In this document: positions 1-52,263 of the stretch, one piece after another
Layout of the letters: each line of letters opens with the position of its first letter
Position numbering within the stretch: position 1 is the first letter of the stretch
Origin: Bacteroidota bacterium
Lineage (GTDB): Bacteria; Bacteroidota; Bacteroidia; NS11-12g; UBA955
Direction of reading: 5' to 3'
DNA: 64,000 nt
NCBI GenBank assembly: GCA_947496065.1
Contig: CANMBF010000010.1
Span: 8,433-72,432 of the forward strand
Program-made: the position numbers and the translations under genes
The notes under the pieces: generated by a model
The model's input: the letters and a program-made list of their open reading frames with translations, nothing else
What the model was told of the DNA's origin: nothing
The model's database searches: none

Positions 1-1316
1 ATGAGGTGGAGTTTGATGAAAAGTACTTGTTTGAGTGGTTTGAGGATTGATGGCGGTTGCACTTTACACGACAAACAATCTCAATGCTTTTGAGGCTTGC
101 GGCCGTGGTTTTTTGTTTGCTGCATGCTTCGACTTTCTATGATGCTCCTCTGGAGCATTGATGCGCGGTGATGAGCCTATGGTACTAAGATATCGCTCCT
201 CTGGAGCGAAGAAGGTTTCGCTTCTACGGCACTATTTACAAACAATCTCTATGCTTTTGCAGCTTGCGATAATGGTTTTTTGTTAGCTAAAGGCTTCGAC
301 TTTCTATGATGCTCCTCTGGAGCATTGATTCGCGGGGTGCTGATCTTGTTACTAAGATATAGCTCCTACGGAGCTAGGTGTGCGAGGTGGTGAATTTGCA
401 GCACTTTCGGTGATGCTAAGATATCGCTCCTCTAGAGCGAATGAGGTTTATACAAATTGATTATTTGTAGTAATAAAGTTTGTGGCAGATGCTTAAGAAT
501 TCTCCGTAGGAGAATAATCTCAGTACCTATAGGGATACTAACAAGCATCTTCGCTCCGTAGGAGCAATACCATCCATACTTATGTCGCTAGCAAAAAGGC
601 TAGGCTGTGATGTAAGCATATCCACTTCTAAAGCAATGTTGGCTTTAGCGAGGCTTCGACTTTCTATGATGCTCCTCTGGAGCATTGATGCGCGGTGATG
701 AGCCTATGGTACTAAGATATCGCTCCTCTGGAGCGAAGAAGGTTTCGCTTCTACGGCACTATTTACAAACAATCTCTATGCTTTTGCAGCTTGCGATAAT
801 GGTTTTTTGTTAGCTAAAGGCTTCGACTATTTATGATGCTCCTCTGGAGCATTGATGCGCGGTGATGAGCCTATGGTAATAAGATATCGCTCCTCTGGAG
901 CGAAGAAGGTTTCGCTTCTGCGGCACTATTTACAAACAATCTCTATGCTTTTGCAGCTTGCGATAATGGTTTTTTGTTAGCTAAAGGCTTCGACTTTCTA
1001 TGATGCTCCTCTGGAGCATTGATTCGCGGGGTGCTGATCTTGTTACTAAGATATAGCTCCTACGGAGCTAGGTGTGCGAGGTGGTGAATTTGCAGCACTT
1101 TCGATGATACTAGGATATCGCTCCTATGGAGCGAATGAGGTTTCACCAATTGATTCTTTGTAGTAACCTAAGCTTGTGGCAGATGCTTTAGGATTCTCCG
1201 TAGGAGAATAATCTCAGTAACACTAGGGATACCCCCAAACCTCTTCGCTCCGTAGGAGCGATACCATCCATACTTATGTTGTTAGCAAAACGGGTAGGCT
1301 GTGATGCAAACAAAAA
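1..1316. repeat. Tandem/segmental array of 167-bp hairpin-rich units (family A), truncated by the window edge
   Basis: GCTTCGAC unit starts at 126, 293, 653, 820 and 987. Layout is A(126-292) B(293-618) linker A(653-819) A(820-986) B(987-1311). 1-125 is a diverged preceding unit. Confidence 0.9.
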
Positions 1317-22536: not shown

Positions 22537-23062
22537 GCCACAGATTCACAGATTAAATTTGAATACATTAATACCACAGATTAAATTTTAATGCTTAATA
22601 TTTTACTCAAGTGCTTCTTGTCCCGTAGGGACAAAACATCTGTAAAGTACAACCTACCCAATGTTCAATATCCCGTAGGGATTATACTTATAACTAAGTT
22701 TTAACAAAAAGCGATAATAAGTTATCGGTCAGTCAACGAATACCACAAATGAAATCTAACGCTTAATCTTTCACAAAGCTTCCTCTTGTCCCGTAAAGAC
22801 AAAACATCTGTAAAGTGTCACCTATCCAAAGCTTCAATATCCAGTAGGGATTATACTTATAACTAAGTTTTAACAAAAAGCGATAATAAGTTATCGGTCA
22901 GTCAACGAATACCACAGATTAAATTTAACGCTTAAGTTTTCACAAAGCTTCCTCTTGTCCCGTAGGGACAAAACATCTGTAAAGTGTCACCTACTCACTG
23001 CCTCAATATCCCCTAGGGATTATACTTTTGACTAAGTATCACTAGTAAGCGTTAAAGCATGA
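22537..23062 (+). repeat. Family B element: head motif GCCACAGATTCACAGAT plus three tandem 169-bp units
   Basis: ACCACA(G/A)A unit starts at 22573, 22742 and 22911. Each unit carries TGTCCC-GTA-GGGACA and ATCCC-GTA-GGGAT hairpins 50 bp apart, plus CGATAA-TAAG-TTATCG. Confidence 0.9.
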
Positions 23063-32942: not shown

Positions 32943-34727
32943 ATGACAGGTTTAAATCCATCAACGTTCTTGAAATTATCATTCACTTTATTTTTTGCTC
33001 TGTTATTGTTCACAGCAAAAGCACAAACATCTGTCAAATTCAGTGTTTATTTCGATGTCAACCAATCTAAAATTAAAATCAAAGATTATTTGGTGCTAGA
33101 TTCTGTTGTCAATATTTTAAAAAGCAAAACCAATATCAAACGCATTCAAATTAATGGATATGCCGATACTACAGGTGGTGCCGAAGCCAACTTAGAATTG
33201 TCTAACAGCCGTACCGATACCGTGGCTGGTTATATTTTAAGTAAGAACTTAATGGTGTATAAAAGTCGCGTAGCCACTGCGAGTTTAGGTGAAAAAGTAT
33301 CGGGCAAAGAAACCGACTTAGAGCAAATGCGTAGAGTAGACATTGTCATTATGATGGCCCGTGCCGATCGCGATACCATTGTTCGCGCTGGTTGTGTTAC
33401 GGCCATGATACCTGCCAACACATTCGAAGGATTTAACAACGACGAATTAATATTCAAATTAGAATACATTAGCAATGCAACCGATGTAAAAAAATACAAC
33501 TTAACATTTAAAGATGCCGATGGCAATCAATTGTTGAGCAATGGCATTGTAAAAGTAACAGCCATGTACAAAAGCAAACCGGTAAAAGCCATTAAGCCTA
33601 TTACTGTGAATATTCCGAAAGTAAACAACGAAGCTGGCTATTCTGCCTACCTTGGTGTTGAAGATAAAACCAAAAACATTACTTGGAAATTAACCGACAA
33701 GAAGGTTATTAACCTAGGTGTTAAACAAGCGCCCAATGGCGATGCTTGCGATTTACAATCTTTCAATATCAAAGATGTGAACCGTTTTTACAATGCCGCT
33801 AAAGTGCGACCAGCCTGCTATTGCGCTGCCGATCCATTTGGTGGTTTGCAAACACCTAACAAGTCAAATGCCATGGCCAAATTCGGTCCTGCAGGTAATA
33901 TTGTTTTAGTAAATGAAAGCAGCTTTAAAAAAGTAGCGGCCGATAAAGCCTATGTGCAAGTGGTAGATGATAAGAGCAAAGAAGAGTATATGGATTTTTG
34001 CAACAGTTTCTTATACCCAGGCATTAGCGATATTCCACAAATACCAAAATTCGAAAGAGAAGTGGTAAAATTCATCGACTTAAATGTCTCTCAAAAAAAT
34101 GATTCAGCTGATATCATCATGTCGAAAAAAGACATGGTTTTAATCATGTTGCCTAAAAGTCAATTGCCTGCACACAAAGGCAAAAGATATGCGGTATTGC
34201 CAGCAGATACTAAAAAAGATAATTTCTTTAACTGGACCAAGAAGATTGTATTTGCCGATTCTTGTCGTGGTTTAGCCAATTGCGATTATGTCATTTTTGA
34301 AGTGCCTTTCACTGGCTTTTACACTGTATTGGAATTAACCCCAGTAGCGGGCAAAGGCAATGCAGCAGCAGATGATGATGGTGAGAAAGCAGCACCATCG
34401 AAAAATGTGAAAATAAAATGCAAAAAATTCAATGGCGTAAATGTTATCTATGGACAAAAAGATGATGGTGTTACCGCTTCAGCCAAGTTCTTAAAGAACA
34501 AAGGCAAGAACACTATTTTAGAACCTAGCATTCCTAAAAAAGAAAAGAAAAACTACAAGCAACATGTTTTCTTGTCGTATGTTATAAAAGATGGCAAACG
34601 ATATGCATGGATAGGCAAAGGCAGTCAGTTAAAAACCGGTTTCTTAAGTGGCAATTGGAAAACCCCAACCTTGGTATACGTACCCGATGAAGAGTGGGAA
34701 GCCTTCGTAAGAAAAGCCTGCGAATAA
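32943..34727 (+). CDS. OmpA-like domain protein with a large uncharacterised C-terminal region
   Basis: Signal peptide. OmpA-like segment YFDVNQSKI...INGYADTTGGAEANLELSNSRT. About 450 aa follow with no recognisable domain. The alternative ATG at 32904 is not excluded. Confidence 0.65.
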   Translation: MTGLNPSTFLKLSFTLFFALLLFTAKAQTSVKFSVYFDVNQSKIKIKDYLVLDSVVNILKSKTNIKRIQINGYADTTGGAEANLELSNSRTDTVAGYILSKNLMVYKSRVATASLGEKVSGKETDLEQMRRVDIVIMMARADRDTIVRAGCVTAMIPANTFEGFNNDELIFKLEYISNATDVKKYNLTFKDADGNQLLSNGIVKVTAMYKSKPVKAIKPITVNIPKVNNEAGYSAYLGVEDKTKNITWKLTDKKVINLGVKQAPNGDACDLQSFNIKDVNRFYNAAKVRPACYCAADPFGGLQTPNKSNAMAKFGPAGNIVLVNESSFKKVAADKAYVQVVDDKSKEEYMDFCNSFLYPGISDIPQIPKFEREVVKFIDLNVSQKNDSADIIMSKKDMVLIMLPKSQLPAHKGKRYAVLPADTKKDNFFNWTKKIVFADSCRGLANCDYVIFEVPFTGFYTVLELTPVAGKGNAAADDDGEKAAPSKNVKIKCKKFNGVNVIYGQKDDGVTASAKFLKNKGKNTILEPSIPKKEKKNYKQHVFLSYVIKDGKRYAWIGKGSQLKTGFLSGNWKTPTLVYVPDEEWEAFVRKACE

Positions 34728-34739
34728 ATCTCGTATTTT

Positions 34740-34775
34740 AAAAAAAACCTGCAAGAAAACTTGCAGGTTTTTTTT
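34740..34775 (+). terminator. Rho-independent terminator after the OmpA-like gene
   Basis: 9-bp stem ACCTGCAAG-aaaa-CTTGCAGGT followed by T8, with an A8 run upstream. Confidence 0.8.
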
Positions 34776-34777
34776 GA

Positions 34778-35054
34778 TTAGTTATTAGTTAATCGTTATT
34801 AAGGGGTATACCACCCAATAACCTAATAACCTAATAACCCACTAGTATAAAAAAACATACCAAGTAGTATGCATTTTCAATAATAAGCCAAAGCTTTCAG
34901 ACCCCGAAGGGGTCATATCTCTATAATATAGATAAAGCCAGATTGCTCTCGACCCCGAAGGGGTCGAATATAAGTTATTGGTTAATTGTTAATAGTTATT
35001 AAGGGAATACCAAGCCCCCTATTAACCCAATAACCTAATAACTCAATAACCCCA
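34778..35054. repeat. Composite palindromic element: two AT-rich TAACC/GGTTA-word arms flanking two GACCCC-GAA-GGGGTC hairpins
   Basis: Arms at 34778-34840 and 34973-35054 are direct repeats, and each is internally an imperfect palindrome. Hairpins at 34900-34914 and 34950-34966 are 51 bp apart. Confidence 0.8.
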
Positions 35055-35117
35055 AGTCACTGTCTTCAAATTTGCGCACCTTTGTAGAACTTGTTTTTAG
35101 CATATTAAAAAATAATG

Positions 35118-41077: not shown

Positions 41078-41605
41078 ATGTCAGCGAGACTTAAAAATTT
41101 TGACTATTCTTCTCCTGGGGATTATTTCATCACTATCATTACGAAAAACAGAGTGCATTATTTTGGCCAAATTAAAGCTCCACCAATTGAAAATACAGAA
41201 ATTAATGAGTCGAAAATGTTGTTAAATGCTATTGGGTTAAGGGCGCACCAATGTTTACAAGAATTAAATCATCATTTTAGCAATGCCATAATTGATGAAT
41301 TTATTGTAATGCCTGACCATGTCCATTTTATTTTGAGTATAAAAAAACCAAACACATTAGATGCAATTATTCAAAAGGAATTTAAATCCAATCGATTTTC
41401 AAGACCAGTTGCAGGCTCAGTGTCTGTTATTGTTCAACAATTCAAGGCCGAAGTGAAACGGTGGTGTGGTAAAAATGGGTTTGAAGCGTTTCAATGGCAA
41501 CCAAGGTTTTACGACCGATTGATAAGAGATTATCGAGAATTTGCCAATGTAAAGAAGTATATCCAAGAGAATCCCAAAAAATGGGGTAAAAAAAAATCCA
41601 AATAA
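41078..41605 (+). CDS. IS200/IS605-type HUH/Y1 transposase homolog, RAYT-like
   Basis: HUH motif PDHVHFIL (H81-V-H83), catalytic-Tyr region WQPRFYDRLIRD (Y145), and a C-terminal YIQENPKKW. There is no partner tnpB. Confidence 0.75.
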   Translation: MSARLKNFDYSSPGDYFITIITKNRVHYFGQIKAPPIENTEINESKMLLNAIGLRAHQCLQELNHHFSNAIIDEFIVMPDHVHFILSIKKPNTLDAIIQKEFKSNRFSRPVAGSVSVIVQQFKAEVKRWCGKNGFEAFQWQPRFYDRLIRDYREFANVKKYIQENPKKWGKKKSK

Positions 41606-41611
41606 ACCGCC

Positions 41612-41741
41612 TGTCACACCAACATACGTGTTACATCATCACACTTGCTACACCATCATGCCCATTACACGATCATCTCTGTTACACCATCAAACGTGTT
41701 AAACGAGCAAACCTGTTACACCAGCATATATGATGGTGTAC
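41612..41741 (+). repeat. Seven exactly phased 17-bp direct repeats (consensus TGTTACACCATCA + 4 nt) plus a terminal inverted copy
   Basis: Unit starts at 41612, 41629, 41646, 41663, 41680, 41697 and 41714. The inverted TGATGGTGTAC at 41731-41741 pairs with unit 7. Confidence 0.9.
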
Positions 41742-49094: not shown

Positions 49095-49317
49095 TTTTAT
49101 GAGACAGGCTAAAAGTATAATCCCTAAGGGATATATAAGCAGGGGTTAGTTTTTACTTACAGTTATTAAATCCCTACGGGATAAGGATACAATTGTTGAT
49201 TTTTGAGTTGCATAAATTAAATCCCTACTTAATGGTGTAGGCTAAAAGTTAATTTTTAGTAGTAAAATTAAATCTGAGAATTTAATGTATTCAATTCTCT
49301 TCTGTGAATCTGTGGCT
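49095..49317 (-). repeat. Family B element, inverted orientation, ending with the head motif next to the Usp gene stop
   Basis: GCTAAAAGTATAATCCCTAAGGGAT...ATCCCTACGGGAT...CTGTGAATCTGTGGC. This is the reverse complement of the 22.5-kb units. Confidence 0.85.
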
Positions 49318-51734: not shown

Positions 51735-51945
51735 AGCTAAAAGTATAATCCCTACGGGATATTGAGGCAGTGGTTAGTTTTTACTTACAGATATTATATC
51801 CCTACGGGATAAAGCGACACATTAGTTATTATTAGGTTTACATCTATTAAATCCCTAACGGATAATGTATGCAATAAGGTACTTTTATACATTAAATACA
51901 ATCTGAGAAATGATTGTATTCAATACTCTTCTGTGAATCTGTGGC
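51735..51945 (-). repeat. Family B element, inverted orientation (copy 1 of 2 upstream of 52264)
   Basis: It begins GCTAAAAGTATAATCCCTACGGGATA and ends CTGTGAATCTGTGGC. Confidence 0.85.
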
Positions 51946-52009
51946 TAATAAAGACTCAATCCTGTTTTGTTCAGATATTTATCGGCCCTTGGGTTTGTTA
52001 GTATTTAAC

Positions 52010-52220
52010 GTAGGCTAAAAGTATAATCCCTACGGGATATTAAGGCAGTGGTTAGTTTTTACTTACAGATATTAAATCCCTACGGGATATAGAAGCAGGG
52101 GTTAGTTTTTACTTACAGATATTAAATCCCTACGGTATAATATATACCATTAGTTTATTTTCAGCATTAAAATTCAATCTGAGAAATAATGTATTCAATT
52201 CTCTTCTGTGAATCTGTGGC
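52010..52220 (-). repeat. Family B element, inverted orientation (copy 2), with three 50-bp sub-repeats
   Basis: TCCCTACGG hairpin cores at 52027, 52077 and 52127. It ends CTGTGAATCTGTGGC, 43 nt from the amidase stop. Confidence 0.85.
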
Positions 52221-52263
52221 TTTTTAAGAATAAGCGCAGCAACACTGCATGCACACGAAAAAA

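What the first reader, a model, noticed from the sequence alone, without database searches (positions are those of the whole stretch)
34900..34966. Sequence-unrelated repeat families share the same geometry: hairpins 50-51 bp apart and tandem units of 167-170 bp
Hairpin-to-hairpin spacing was measured from stem starts. In family A the values are 51 bp (144 to 195), 51 bp (311 to 362) and 52 bp (501 to 553). In family B they are 50 bp (22621 to 22671) and 50 bp each for 52027, 52077 and 52127. For the GACCCC pair it is 51 bp (34900 to 34951). Tandem unit lengths are 167 bp (family A), 169 bp (family B) and 170 bp (family C). The yjbR-region duplication is 352 bp, about twice 176. The stem sequences differ between families (GCTCC, TCCC, GACCCC), but all use a CC-NNN-GG centre with 3-nt loops. 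A conserved geometry with divergent sequence suggests a shared generating mechanism or a shared structural constraint. Possibilities include a replicative or transpositional step of fixed size, binding of a protein at regular spacing, or a folded RNA module of about 50 nt.
Basis: seen in the sequence. Interest (0 to 1): 0.6.

Follow-up and report, generated by a model that had tools for sequence, protein, structure and literature searches.

The report
REP-like hairpin pairs, fixed 51-bp spacing
The 50-52 bp hairpin spacing is real and is conserved across Bacteroidota, because the three "unrelated" families are diverged versions of one two-hairpin DNA repeat that accompanies a small IS200-like (Y1/HUH) transposase gene; the matching 167-170 bp unit lengths are coincidence.

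Summary
Genome-wide, 239 perfect CC-NNN-GG hairpins give 36 neighbour pairs at 50-53 bp, against 0.46 expected. Mirror-image GG-NNN-CC hairpins give none.

The families are not sequence-unrelated. All share one module: a C:G-closed mini-hairpin with a GNA loop, a short "tail", a GTAA/GTAG tag 16 nt from the loop centre, a spacer of about 20 nt, and a second hairpin.

The same module, as inverted pairs, brackets an IS200-like Y1 (HUH) transposase gene. It does so at one copy in this genome and in most of 80 homologous loci from other Bacteroidota. Across 34 species the spacer sequence is as random as a shuffle, yet the hairpin distance stays 51.7 +/- 2.5 bp. This points to a constraint on length.

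Loops follow the rule for stable single-stranded DNA mini-hairpins (C-GNA-G, C-GNNA-G). That favours a DNA substrate over an RNA.

The 167-170 bp agreement does not generalise. Hairpin arrays here have periods of 50-169 bp, and arrays in other species cluster only at 45-57 bp.

Best reading: a REP/RAYT-like system built on Y1 subclass 1.2. The literature lists that subclass as having no repeats.

The parts
1..50 (+). 3' end of an IS200-like Y1 (HUH) transposase gene, including its stop codon at 48-50. The gene is genome contig C10:8006-8482 and starts 426 nt before the window.
   Evidence: Pfam Y1_Tnp match of 87.7 bits. ORF translation. NCBIfam IS200/IS605 model at 65.5 bits, above its cut-off of 55.
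71..1270 (.). Family A cluster, with stems GCTCC and TCTCC. It holds seven two-hairpin modules, with hairpin centres at 150/201, 317/368, 677/728, 844/895 and 1011/1062 (box on the - strand) and at 507/559 and 1201/1253 (box on the + strand). There is one extra hairpin at 1126. The period is 167 bp in part of the cluster.
22614..23027 (+). Family B array of three 169-bp units. Each unit has a GTCCC-GTA hairpin, the AACATCTGTAAAG box and an ATCCC-GTA hairpin. Centres are 22626/22676 and 22963/23014. The middle unit, at about 22795/22845, has decayed stems.
34900..34966 (+). The GACCCC-GAA-GGGGTC pair named in the finding, with centres 34907 and 34958, 51 bp apart. The first hairpin is followed by ATATCTCTATAAT, a shifted and degenerate version of the box. 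The second is followed by ATAT. It is a divergent member of the same module family.
   Evidence: Single-strand DNA fold: -15.7 kcal/mol, z = -4.1, with two independent hairpins.
49120..49232 (-). Family B doublet with ATCCC stems, centres 49126/49176. A decayed third unit lies near 49226.
51748..51862 (-). Family B doublet with centres 51754/51804. A decayed third hairpin (TCCCTAACGGA) lies 53 bp further on.
52026..52139 (-). Train of three 50-bp units with centres 52032, 52082 and 52132. The third stem is decayed (GGT in place of GGG).

Best explanation
The hairpins belong to one superfamily of extragenic two-hairpin DNA modules about 80 nt long. The module is a REP-like repeat whose partner enzyme is an IS200-like Y1 (HUH) single-strand DNA transposase of subclass 1.2, recognised by its Y---Q--HH motif.

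Anatomy shown here. Hairpin 1 has a 5-8 bp stem that always closes with CC/GG, and a GTA, GAA or GCA loop. A tetranucleotide 'tail' lies at +10 to +13 from the loop centre. A GTA[A/G] tag starts exactly at +16. A non-conserved, A-rich spacer of about 20 nt follows. Hairpin 2 has the same or a sister stem and the same tail. Families A, B and the GACCCC pair are sub-families that differ mainly by compensated stem changes.

The module occurs in two settings. As inverted pairs it brackets the Y1 gene, with typical hairpin centres at -70 and -19 before the start and +18 and +70 after the stop. It also occurs as gene-less doublets and short trains between other genes.

Inferred, not shown. On single-stranded DNA the strand that reads C-GNA-G folds into two stable mini-hairpins. 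These are bound by the Y1 enzyme, probably as a dimer with one hairpin per subunit, as for IS608 and ISDra2 TnpA. The enzyme would cut near the tail/GTAG junction, at about +14/+15, where the similarity between the two hairpin contexts ends. On this view the 51 +/- 2 bp distance is kept by selection on enzyme-substrate geometry, or on the size of the excised unit, and not on spacer sequence.

The 167-170 bp units are local tandem duplications of a doublet plus about 90 nt of unrelated flank. Their similar lengths are coincidence.
For: (1) Spacing. There are 36 pairs at 50-53 bp against 0.46 expected.

(2) Homology of the families. Alignment of 38 pairs shows the same layout and linker box for the ATCCC/GTCCC, GCTCC/TCTCC and GACCCC stems. 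The ACCCC copies carry the same AATATCTGTAAC box.

(3) Enzyme link. The genome has four Y1_Tnp genes. The C2 copy is flanked by inverted ATCCC doublets, and the C10 copy is followed by the family A cluster. These proteins carry DH[LI]H, WQEG and Y---Q--HH motifs. They pass the NCBIfam IS200 model and match ISDra2 TnpA, PDB 2xm3, at E = 4e-8.

(4) Phylum-wide conservation. Among 80 homologous loci, 67 have CC-NNN-GG hairpins within 3 kb. Sixty-nine neighbour spacings fall at 48-53 bp, with the mode at 51, and the layout around the gene is mirrored.

(5) Length constraint. With one doublet per locus in 34 species, the spacing is 51.7 +/- 2.5 bp, while spacer identity is 0.483 against 0.474 for shuffled spacers.

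(6) Fixed tag and tail. GTA[AG] starts at +16 in 97 of 109 hairpins from other species and in 26 of 49 here. In the 58 terminal doublets from other species, the +10 base is identical at both hairpins in every case although it differs between species. Across the rest of the tail identity falls from 0.67-0.71 at +11 and +12 to 0.59 at +13, 0.45 at +14 and 0.22 at +15.

(7) DNA-type loops. Upstream of the gene the loops are GTA (31), ATA (10) and GTTA (16). Downstream they are the reverse complements. This fits the C-GNA-G and C-GNNA-G mini-hairpin rule (PMC13037366, PMC3201870).

(8) CC closure, tested without circularity. It dominates among all perfect hairpins in the 110 nt upstream of the gene.

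(9) Extragenic location. Of 106 repeat-type hairpins, 98 lie outside ORFs of >=120 aa, although such ORFs cover 87.6% of the genome.

(10) The doublet is the commonest multi-hairpin form.

(11) Loci with the same stem have more similar proteins, 0.661 against 0.605 identity, permutation p < 0.0005.

(12) Genome association. Of 23 Bacteroidota genomes with at least 2 exact doublets, 18 have the gene, against 93 of 201 overall. The odds ratio is 4.9, p = 0.0015.
Against: No activity, binding or cleavage has been shown for any subclass 1.2 protein.

The association is not strict. Five of the 23 doublet-bearing genomes lack a detectable homologue. Three of these carry doublets with a GTAG-type box or a near variant of it (G053, G182 and, less clearly, G109). 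Many genomes with the gene have no exact-match doublets.

In this genome only the C2 copy has the canonical bracket. The C10 copy has no upstream doublet. The C65 copy has an in-frame stop and one lone hairpin. The ACCCC/GACCCC family has no gene of its own.

Family A mostly uses TCT/AGA loops, which do not fit the GNA rule.

The tag is 3' of the hairpin and reads GTAA here. In canonical REPs, GTAG lies immediately 5' of the palindrome (PMC8266576).

The link between stem and protein identity could be shared ancestry alone.

The cause of the length constraint is inferred, not tested.
Confidence: 0.7

Rival explanations
1. The module is a structured RNA. On this view it is a folded RNA unit of about 50-80 nt, such as a small RNA, a processing or stability element, or a terminator-like element, and the spacing reflects RNA architecture.
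For: The two hairpins fold independently and better than shuffled controls. Other REPs are known to affect mRNA stability (PMC8266576, introduction).
Against: No Rfam family matches the window at gathering score, two repeat regions in permissive mode, or 20 related loci. The stems are only 5-7 bp and are not followed by a U-run. The copies on the two sides of the Y1 gene are mirror images, so a transcript through the gene would carry opposite senses. The common 4-nt loop GTTA is not an RNA GNRA loop but fits the DNA GNNA mini-hairpin. Both orientations occur within one cluster.
Confidence: 0.08
2. The hairpins are double-stranded DNA binding sites. A host protein, such as a nucleoid protein, gyrase or IHF as at E. 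coli BIMEs, would bind at regular spacing, and the 51 bp would be set by helical phasing.
For: The palindromic sites recur at a fixed distance. E. coli BIMEs bind IHF and gyrase and show regular spacing (PMC2817692 abstract; PMC8266576 introduction). A distance of 51 bp is close to five helical turns.
Against: The mode of 51 bp corresponds to 4.9 turns, and the observed range of 48-53 bp spans half a turn. Loop identity (GNA or GNNA) and its strand polarity are conserved, although loops should matter little for binding of a palindrome in duplex DNA. The tag and tail are asymmetric. The tight bracket around a single-strand DNA enzyme gene is not explained.
Confidence: 0.07
3. There is no functional constraint. 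On this view the spacing is inherited from one ancestral doublet and has simply not drifted, and the agreement in both spacing and unit length is historical accident.
For: Within this genome, copies of one sub-family share spacer sequence, so their equal lengths follow from recent common descent. For the 167-170 bp units this reading is correct.
Against: Between species the spacers are no more alike than shuffled sequence, so many substitutions have accumulated. Even so, the length stays at 51.7 +/- 2.5 bp in 34 species, and 16 of 33 arrays next to the gene have periods of 45-57 bp. All other inter-hairpin distances are broadly scattered.
Confidence: 0.1

Closest known systems
REPtron: REP/BIME sequences with TnpA-REP (RAYT) of E. 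coli, Stenotrophomonas and Marinomonas (PMC3333891, PMC8266576, PMC2817692)
   Same: Both involve short extragenic palindromes in many copies. Both have a low-copy, diverged Y1/HUH gene bracketed by inverted copies of its own repeat. Several repeat sub-families, each near its own gene copy, can share one genome. Both have a GTAG-type tag at a fixed position and clusters with regular spacing.
   Different: The enzyme here is class 1, subclass 1.2 (Y---Q--HH), not class 2 (Y---NP). It scores only 26 bits on the NCBIfam REP_Tyr_transpos model, whose cut-off is 80. The tag lies 3' of the hairpin at +16, not directly 5' of it. The hairpin is a 5-8 bp mini-hairpin with a triloop. The basic unit is a direct (head-to-tail) pair, which is rare among published REP dimers (PMC3733652).
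REPINs of Pseudomonas (PMC3116915, PMC3337134)
   Same: Both have a doublet as the predominant unit, a sharply peaked distance between the two members, and a cognate single-copy transposase.
   Different: A REPIN is two inverted REPs that fold into one long hairpin. Here the two hairpins are in direct orientation and fold separately.
IS200/IS605 insertion sequences and their gene-less derivatives (IS608, ISDra2; PATEs)
   Same: These are the closest enzymes by sequence (NCBIfam IS200 model passed; ISDra2 and IS608 TnpA are the best PDB matches). In both, two hairpins on the same strand define an element, and a short guide-like tetranucleotide lies next to the hairpin.
   Different: The gene copies here are 40-54% identical, not near-identical. 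The gene is bracketed by inverted, not direct, hairpin sets, so it cannot be lifted out on one strand. The guide-like tail is 3', not 5', of the hairpin.
TnpA-Y1 subclass 1.2 (Quentin, Siguier, Chandler and Fichant 2018, PMC6006769)
   Same: The proteins share the motif signature (DH[IV]H, WQ, Y---Q--HH), the length of about 150 aa, the low copy number and the Bacteroidetes distribution.
   Different: That paper lists the subclass as having no REP and as generally lacking IS200-type terminal structures. Here, and in 67 of 80 related loci, hairpin modules lie within 3 kb of the gene, and in many loci they bracket it directly.
DNA mini-hairpins d(GCGNAGC) and d(GCGNNAGC) (PMC13037366, PMC3201870)
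   Same: Both have a C:G closing pair with 5'-C and a G-N-A or G-N-N-A loop. This is the rule the repeat loops follow on one strand.
   Different: Those are synthetic oligonucleotides or a few natural examples, such as sites at phage origins. They have not been described as a dispersed bacterial repeat family.

Membership tests
REP / REPtron (RAYT-associated repeats) | Short palindromic repeats, many copies, extragenic | tested here: met
   There are 106 repeat-type hairpins, and 98 lie outside ORFs of >=120 aa. There are 33-36 doublets.
REP / REPtron (RAYT-associated repeats) | Y1 gene flanked by inverted copies of the repeat | tested here: met
   The C2 copy is flanked this way, and the layout is mirrored in most of 80 related loci.
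REP / REPtron (RAYT-associated repeats) | Conserved GTAG tetranucleotide immediately 5' of the palindrome | tested here: not met
   GTA[AG] lies 3' of the hairpin, starting at +16 from the loop centre. In this genome it reads GTAA.
REP / REPtron (RAYT-associated repeats) | Class 2 TnpA-REP enzyme (Y---NP motif; NCBIfam NF047646) | tested here: not met
   The scores are 25.6 and 26.7 bits against a cut-off of 80. The motif is Y---Q--HH.
REPIN | Two REPs in inverted orientation that fold into one long hairpin | tested here: not met
   Both loops of a pair read GTA on the same strand. The folds show two separate hairpins.
IS200/IS605 insertion sequence | Y1 HUH transposase with HUH motif, catalytic Tyr and Gln | tested here: met
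   D54, H55, H57, Y115 and Q119 are invariant. NF033573 scores are 74.4 and 65.5 bits against a cut-off of 55.
IS200/IS605 insertion sequence | Several near-identical copies of the whole element in a genome | tested here: not met
   The three copies are 54% and 40% identical, and one has an in-frame stop.
IS200/IS605 insertion sequence | Left-end and right-end hairpins on the same strand around the gene | tested here: not met
   The hairpin sets on the two sides of the gene are reverse complements of each other.
TnpA-Y1 subclass 1.2 | DH[IV]H, WQ and Y---Q--HH motifs, about 150 aa, Bacteroidetes or Cyanobacteria | tested here: met
   The proteins carry DHLH or DHIH, WQEG, and YIENQEEHH, YIDKQEAHH or YLKNQEAHH. 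The signature is taken from PMC6006769.
TnpA-Y1 subclass 1.2 | No associated REP-like repeats (as published) | tested here: not met
   Of 80 loci, 67 carry hairpin modules and 41 carry doublets.
Any Rfam RNA family | Covariance-model match at gathering score | tested here: not met
   There was no match over any doublet. The one Flavo-1 hit in L010 is a different sequence about 155 nt from the gene.
DNA mini-hairpin C-GNA-G / C-GNNA-G | 5'-C...G-3' closing pair with a GNA or GNNA loop | tested here: met
   This holds for GTA, GAA, GCA, GGA and GTTA loops on the box-bearing strand. It does not hold for the AGA loops of family A or for ATA loops. Stability itself was not measured.

The most novel reading that the evidence does not exclude
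The 51-nt period may itself be the mobile unit. Each hairpin plus its tail would be a nick site for the Y1 enzyme. Two such sites in direct orientation would then delimit a segment of about 51 nt (GTAG tag, spacer, next hairpin, tail). This segment could be excised as a single-stranded circle and re-inserted next to any solo site.

That would explain several observations together. Similarity between the two hairpin contexts stops at +14/+15. Trains have a uniform 50-57 bp period. The doublet is the commonest multi-hairpin form. The spacer is constrained in length but not in sequence.

It would be the smallest HUH-mobilised element known. It would also show that REP-type domestication arose a second time, from the IS200 branch (subclass 1.2), across Bacteroidota.
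Probability: 0.2. Interest if true: 0.75.

Novelty: new variant of a known kind. Interest (0 to 1): 0.55.

Why it matters
REP/RAYT systems are the main example of a domesticated transposase kept together with its own non-autonomous repeats, and they have been studied almost only in Proteobacteria.

Here a different enzyme branch shows the same partnership across Bacteroidota. The only systematic survey I found lists this branch, Y1 subclass 1.2, as having no repeats and no IS ends.

The substrate is unusually simple and well defined: two C-GNA-G mini-hairpins a fixed 51 nt apart, with a tag at +16. This gives a directly testable in-vitro system for asking how a Y1/HUH enzyme reads hairpin distance.

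It also explains a common class of unannotated intergenic repeats and assembly breaks in Bacteroidota genomes. In this genome, 18 of 106 repeat hairpins lie within 1 kb of a contig end.

Tried and rejected
(1) Rfam. There were no matches at gathering score on the window. In permissive mode there were only terminator-like sub-threshold hits at 34741-34776 and nothing on the doublets. Across 20 related loci the only hits were RNase P, a tRNA and one Flavo-1 copy that does not overlap a doublet.

(2) Transcription evidence.

(3) Homology of the roughly 90-nt linkers of the 167-bp and 169-bp units. Alignment shows similarity only in the roughly 80-nt doublet part. The equal lengths are therefore not due to shared linker sequence.

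(4) A search for a 167-170 bp peak elsewhere. There is none in this genome and none next to the gene in 80 loci.

(5) A search for an empty site to define insertion ends. The nearest relatives are only 64-78% identical at the flanking genes. In G007 the orthologous spacer is about 180 bp and lacks both the doublet and the long AT-rich hairpins. The divergence is too great to map exact boundaries.

(6) CRISPR-like reading, with a conserved repeat and variable spacers. Rejected, because spacers within a train are near-copies of each other, with 83-96% matches over whole units.

(7) REPIN-like long hairpin. Rejected, because the two hairpins are in direct orientation and fold separately.

(8) Helical phasing. 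The 48-53 bp range spans half a turn, so this is uninformative.

(9) The second Y1-type gene in the window (41078-41605). It has no CC-NNN-GG hairpins nearby and belongs to a different subclass.

(10) Literature searches for the motif strings, and for REPtron together with Bacteroidota class names, found no description of these repeats.
Full report
**1. What is in the sequence**

The window is contig C10:8433-72432 of a 2.91-Mb, 36.5% G+C draft genome in 79 contigs.
- Family A has GCTCC or TCTCC stems, with centres at 150/201, 317/368, 507/559 and further pairs.
- Family B has GTCCC or ATCCC stems, with centres at 22626/22676, 22963/23014, 49126/49176, 51754/51804 and 52032/52082/52132.
- The GACCCC-GAA-GGGGTC pair has centres at 34907/34958.
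- All spacings are 50-52 bp.
- Tandem Repeats Finder confirms periods of 167 bp (family A), 169 bp (family B) and 50 bp (52025-52139).

**2. Is the spacing more than chance?**

- There are 239 perfect CC-NNN-GG hairpins with a stem of at least 5 bp and a 3-nt loop.
- Pair distances peak at 51 (14 pairs), 52 (10), 50 (9) and 53 (3). Almost nothing falls at 0-49 or 60-99 bp.
- The 117 mirror-image GG-NNN-CC hairpins give one pair within 400 bp. Hairpins with other centres give a flat distribution.
- Placing all 239 hairpins at random in the 362 kb that lie outside long ORFs gives a mean of 0.46 neighbour pairs at 50-53 bp, and at most 5 in 1000 trials. The observed number is 36.

The roughly 51-bp spacing is therefore real.

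**3. The families are not unrelated**

I listed all 38 close pairs and aligned them in one orientation. They show a single architecture, whatever the stem:
- hairpin 1, of the form xxCC-GTA-GGxx;
- the box (A)ATATCT(G)TAAC;
- about 20 variable nucleotides;
- hairpin 2, of the form xxCC-GTA-GGxx;
- then TATAC or ATACCAT.

The TCT-loop copies of family A are the same module on the other strand. The GACCCC pair at the finding's coordinates has a shifted, degenerate box (GGGGTC-ATATCTCTATAAT). Other ACCCC copies in the genome carry the canonical AATATCTGTAAC box. These are sub-families of one module that differ mainly by compensated stem changes.

**4. The partner gene**

A Pfam Y1_Tnp search of the genome finds four genes.
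- C2:125572-126099 is bracketed by ATCCC doublets in inverted orientation.
- C10:8006-8482 ends at window position 50 and is followed by the family A cluster.
- C65:7160-7561 has an in-frame stop and one lone hairpin.
- The gene at window 41078-41605 is a more distant, RAYT-like gene with no such hairpins.

The first three proteins are 54% and 40% identical to each other. They keep D54, H55, H57, Y115, Q119, H122 and H123. The first two pass the NCBIfam IS200/IS605 model at 74 and 65 bits; the third, at 52.6 bits, is just under its cut-off of 55. The first two score only about 26 bits on the REP-associated transposase model, whose cut-off is 80. The C2 copy, the one searched, has its best solved relatives in ISDra2 and IS608 TnpA.

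Their motifs are DH[LI]H, WQEG and Y---Q--HH. These are the signature of TnpA-Y1 subclass 1.2 in Quentin et al. 2018 (PMC6006769). [quoted passage not shown]

**5. The geometry is conserved across the phylum**

I fetched 80 loci encoding homologues that are 56-76% identical to the C2 protein. Nearly all come from other Bacteroidota species.
- Sixty-seven loci have CC-NNN-GG hairpins within 3 kb.
- Neighbour spacings are 48 (7), 49 (11), 50 (15), 51 (24), 52 (7) and 53 (5). All longer distances are scattered.
- The typical layout is hairpins at about -70 and -19 before the start codon, with GTA loops, and at about +18 and +70 after the stop, with TAC loops. This is a mirror image around the gene.
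- Stems differ by species: GTCCC, GTTCC, ATCCC, GCTCC, GCCCC, ACTCC, TCCCC and others.

The CC/GG closure is not an artefact of my search. Among all perfect hairpins in the 110 nt upstream of the gene, CC-closed ones dominate, with 53 having 3-nt loops and 28 having 4-nt loops.

In 201 Bacteroidota genomes, the exact pattern CCGTAGG-N40-48-CCGTAGG occurs in 53. Of the 23 genomes with at least 2 hits, 18 have the gene, against 93 of 201 overall. The odds ratio is 4.9 and p = 0.0015. The link is significant but not strict.

**6. Fine anatomy and what it suggests**

Positions are counted from the loop centre.
- GTA[A/G] starts exactly at +16 in 97 of 109 hairpins from other species and in 26 of 49 here. 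The phylum consensus is AATATcGGTAGAA. In this genome the tag reads GTAA.
- In the 58 terminal doublets from other species, the +10 base is the same at both hairpins in every case, although the tail differs between species (ATAT, TGGT, CTGT, TCAT). Identity between the two hairpin contexts then declines from 0.67-0.71 at +11 and +12 to 0.59 at +13, 0.45 at +14 and 0.22 at +15. This places a functional boundary just before the tag.
- With one doublet per locus in 34 species, the spacers are no more alike than shuffled spacers (identity 0.483 against 0.474). The hairpin distance is nevertheless 51.7 +/- 2.5 bp. This is the strongest evidence that length is constrained and sequence is not.
- The doublet is the commonest multi-hairpin form. 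This genome has 33 doublets, one triplet and one train of five. The 80 loci have 105 doublets, 13 triplets and trains of up to nine.
- Loci that share a stem have more similar proteins, 0.661 against 0.605 identity, permutation p < 0.0005. This is compatible with co-inheritance or co-evolution.

**7. DNA or RNA?**

Upstream of the gene, on the coding strand, the loops are GTA (31), ATA (10), GGA, GAA and the tetraloop GTTA (16). Downstream they are the reverse complements: TAC (34), TAT (10) and TAAC (15).

A C:G closing pair with a GNA or GNNA loop is the rule for unusually stable single-stranded DNA mini-hairpins (PMC13037366). Stability depends on the closing pair having C on the 5' side (PMC3201870). 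GUUA is not an RNA GNRA tetraloop.

Three further points favour single-stranded DNA recognised by the Y1/HUH enzyme over an RNA: the mirror symmetry around the gene, the absence of any Rfam match and the presence of both orientations within one cluster.

Folding shows two independent hairpins and no REPIN-like long hairpin. The hairpins are extragenic: 98 of 106 lie outside long ORFs, which cover 87.6% of the genome.

**8. The 167-170 bp units**

This part of the finding does not hold up.
- Genome-wide there are 39 tandem arrays with periods of 40-340 bp. Those that carry these hairpins have periods of 50, 52, 123, 126, 128, 154, 156, 167, 167 and 169 bp.
- The roughly 90 nt outside the doublet are not homologous between the 167-bp and 169-bp units.
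- 'Family C' (170 bp) is a two-copy, 79%-identical repeat without these hairpins.
- The 352-bp duplication is unrelated to the hairpins.
- Next to the gene in other species, 16 of 33 arrays have periods of 45-57 bp. The rest are scattered (72, 80, 83, 96, 112 and so on up to 223) with no peak near 168.

The units are local tandem duplications of a doublet plus whatever flanked it.

**9. Explanation and its limits**

Shown here:
- one homologous two-hairpin module;
- its fixed geometry;
- its extragenic spread;
- its bracket around subclass 1.2 Y1 genes across a phylum.

Inferred:
- the enzyme binds the two mini-hairpins on single-stranded DNA, probably as a dimer like IS608 and ISDra2 TnpA;
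- it cuts near +14/+15;
- the 51-nt distance is imposed by enzyme-substrate geometry or by the size of the unit that is moved.

Weak points:
- no biochemistry exists for this subclass;
- only one of three gene copies here has the canonical bracket;
- the ACCCC/GACCCC sub-family has no gene of its own;
- family A uses non-GNA loops;
- three genomes in the phylum sample that carry doublets with a GTAG-type box, or a near variant of it, lack a detectable gene.

**10. Comparison with what is known**

The system works like a REPtron, that is, REP/BIME sequences plus TnpA-REP (PMC3333891, PMC8266576). It fails three membership tests for that family:
- the enzyme is class 1 rather than class 2;
- the GTAG-type tag is 3' of the hairpin at +16 rather than directly 5';
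- the unit is a direct pair, not an inverted pair. Head-to-tail dimers are rare among published REPs (PMC3733652).

It is not a REPIN, because there is no long hairpin. It is not an IS200/IS605 element, because the gene copies are diverged and the ends are inverted.

I found no published description of these repeats. Earlier follow-up notes in this scan reached the same enzyme-repeat pairing, both for other stretches of this genome and for other Bacteroidota genomes. I treated those notes as leads and re-derived the pairing here.

This report adds several points:
- the quantitative geometry test;
- the +16 tag;
- the tail identity between the two hairpins;
- the random-spacer, fixed-length result;
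- the DNA mini-hairpin loop rule;
- the rejection of the 167-170 bp claim.

**Verdict**

Interest is moderate. The spacing claim is right and leads to a testable enzyme-substrate question. The 'unrelated families' and 'shared unit length' claims are wrong.

Noticed in passing
window 34777-34850 and 34970-35056: Two copies, 200 bp apart, of a long AT-rich imperfect hairpin (TTATTAG / CTAATAAC words) flank the GACCCC pair. The same hairpin is a multi-copy repeat in the genus (one relative, G010, has 24 hits with this query). It also sits next to ACCCC-TTC-GGGGT hairpins on contigs C64 and C66, so 'mini-hairpin plus long hairpin' is itself a recurring composite. The orthologous spacer in relative G007 lacks all of it.
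   Followed up: partly
genome contigs C2:162263, C2:162511 and C36:19086-19666: This is a variant architecture of the ACCCC sub-family. The mini-hairpin and AATATCT tail are followed by GTAA and then directly by a long palindrome (for example CCGGCACAAT-GTA-ATTGTGCCGG). The layout resembles a canonical REP (tag plus palindrome) preceded by a mini-hairpin. On C36 it forms 4.5 tandem units of 128 bp. The second hairpin is about 35 nt away, not 51, so the 51-bp rule is not universal.
   Followed up: partly
genome contig C65:7160-7618: The third subclass 1.2 Y1 gene copy has an in-frame TAA stop and lacks flanking doublets. It is probably a decaying pseudogene.
   Followed up: partly
window 41078-41605: This is a separate RAYT-like Y1 gene (NCBIfam REP_Tyr_transpos 53.9 bits, below the cut-off of 80). 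It is followed by a 17-bp x 7 tandem array at 41610-41728. There are no CC-NNN-GG hairpins nearby, so it is not the partner of the repeats studied here.
   Followed up: partly
L010 3609-3668 (Flavobacterium sp. J49): A Flavo-1 RNA motif (RF01705, 58.6 bits, gathering score 42) lies about 155 nt downstream of the Y1 gene. Its sequence is unrelated to the hairpin doublets.
   Followed up: no
whole genome (contig ends): Eighteen of 106 repeat-type hairpins lie within 1 kb of a contig end, against 5.4% expected. The repeats therefore break the assembly, and their true number is under-counted.
   Followed up: no
G197:C1 117674-117834, 160226-160385 and 4819684-4819843: In a complete 6-Mb Bacteroidota genome, doublets occur as convergent inverted pairs about 100 bp apart with no gene between them. 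They look like gene-less brackets.
   Followed up: no
window 34741-34776: A perfect 18-bp-stem hairpin flanked by A-runs and T-runs lies directly after the ORF ending at 34727. It looks like a bidirectional intrinsic terminator. It accounts for all the weak Rfam hits in this spacer.
   Followed up: no
window 22537-22560, 49297-49317, 51930-51950 and 52205-52225: The motif CTGTGAATCTGTGGC, or its reverse complement, marks one end of the larger family B mosaic elements. It is a separate repeat component joined to the hairpin trains.
   Followed up: no
G187:C1, ten sites (for example 2433324-2434877): A different repeat begins CCGTAGGGGCGGGAAACCCGCCC. It matched the doublet pattern in a genome without the Y1 homologue and has no GTAG box, so it is probably an unrelated element.
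   Followed up: no
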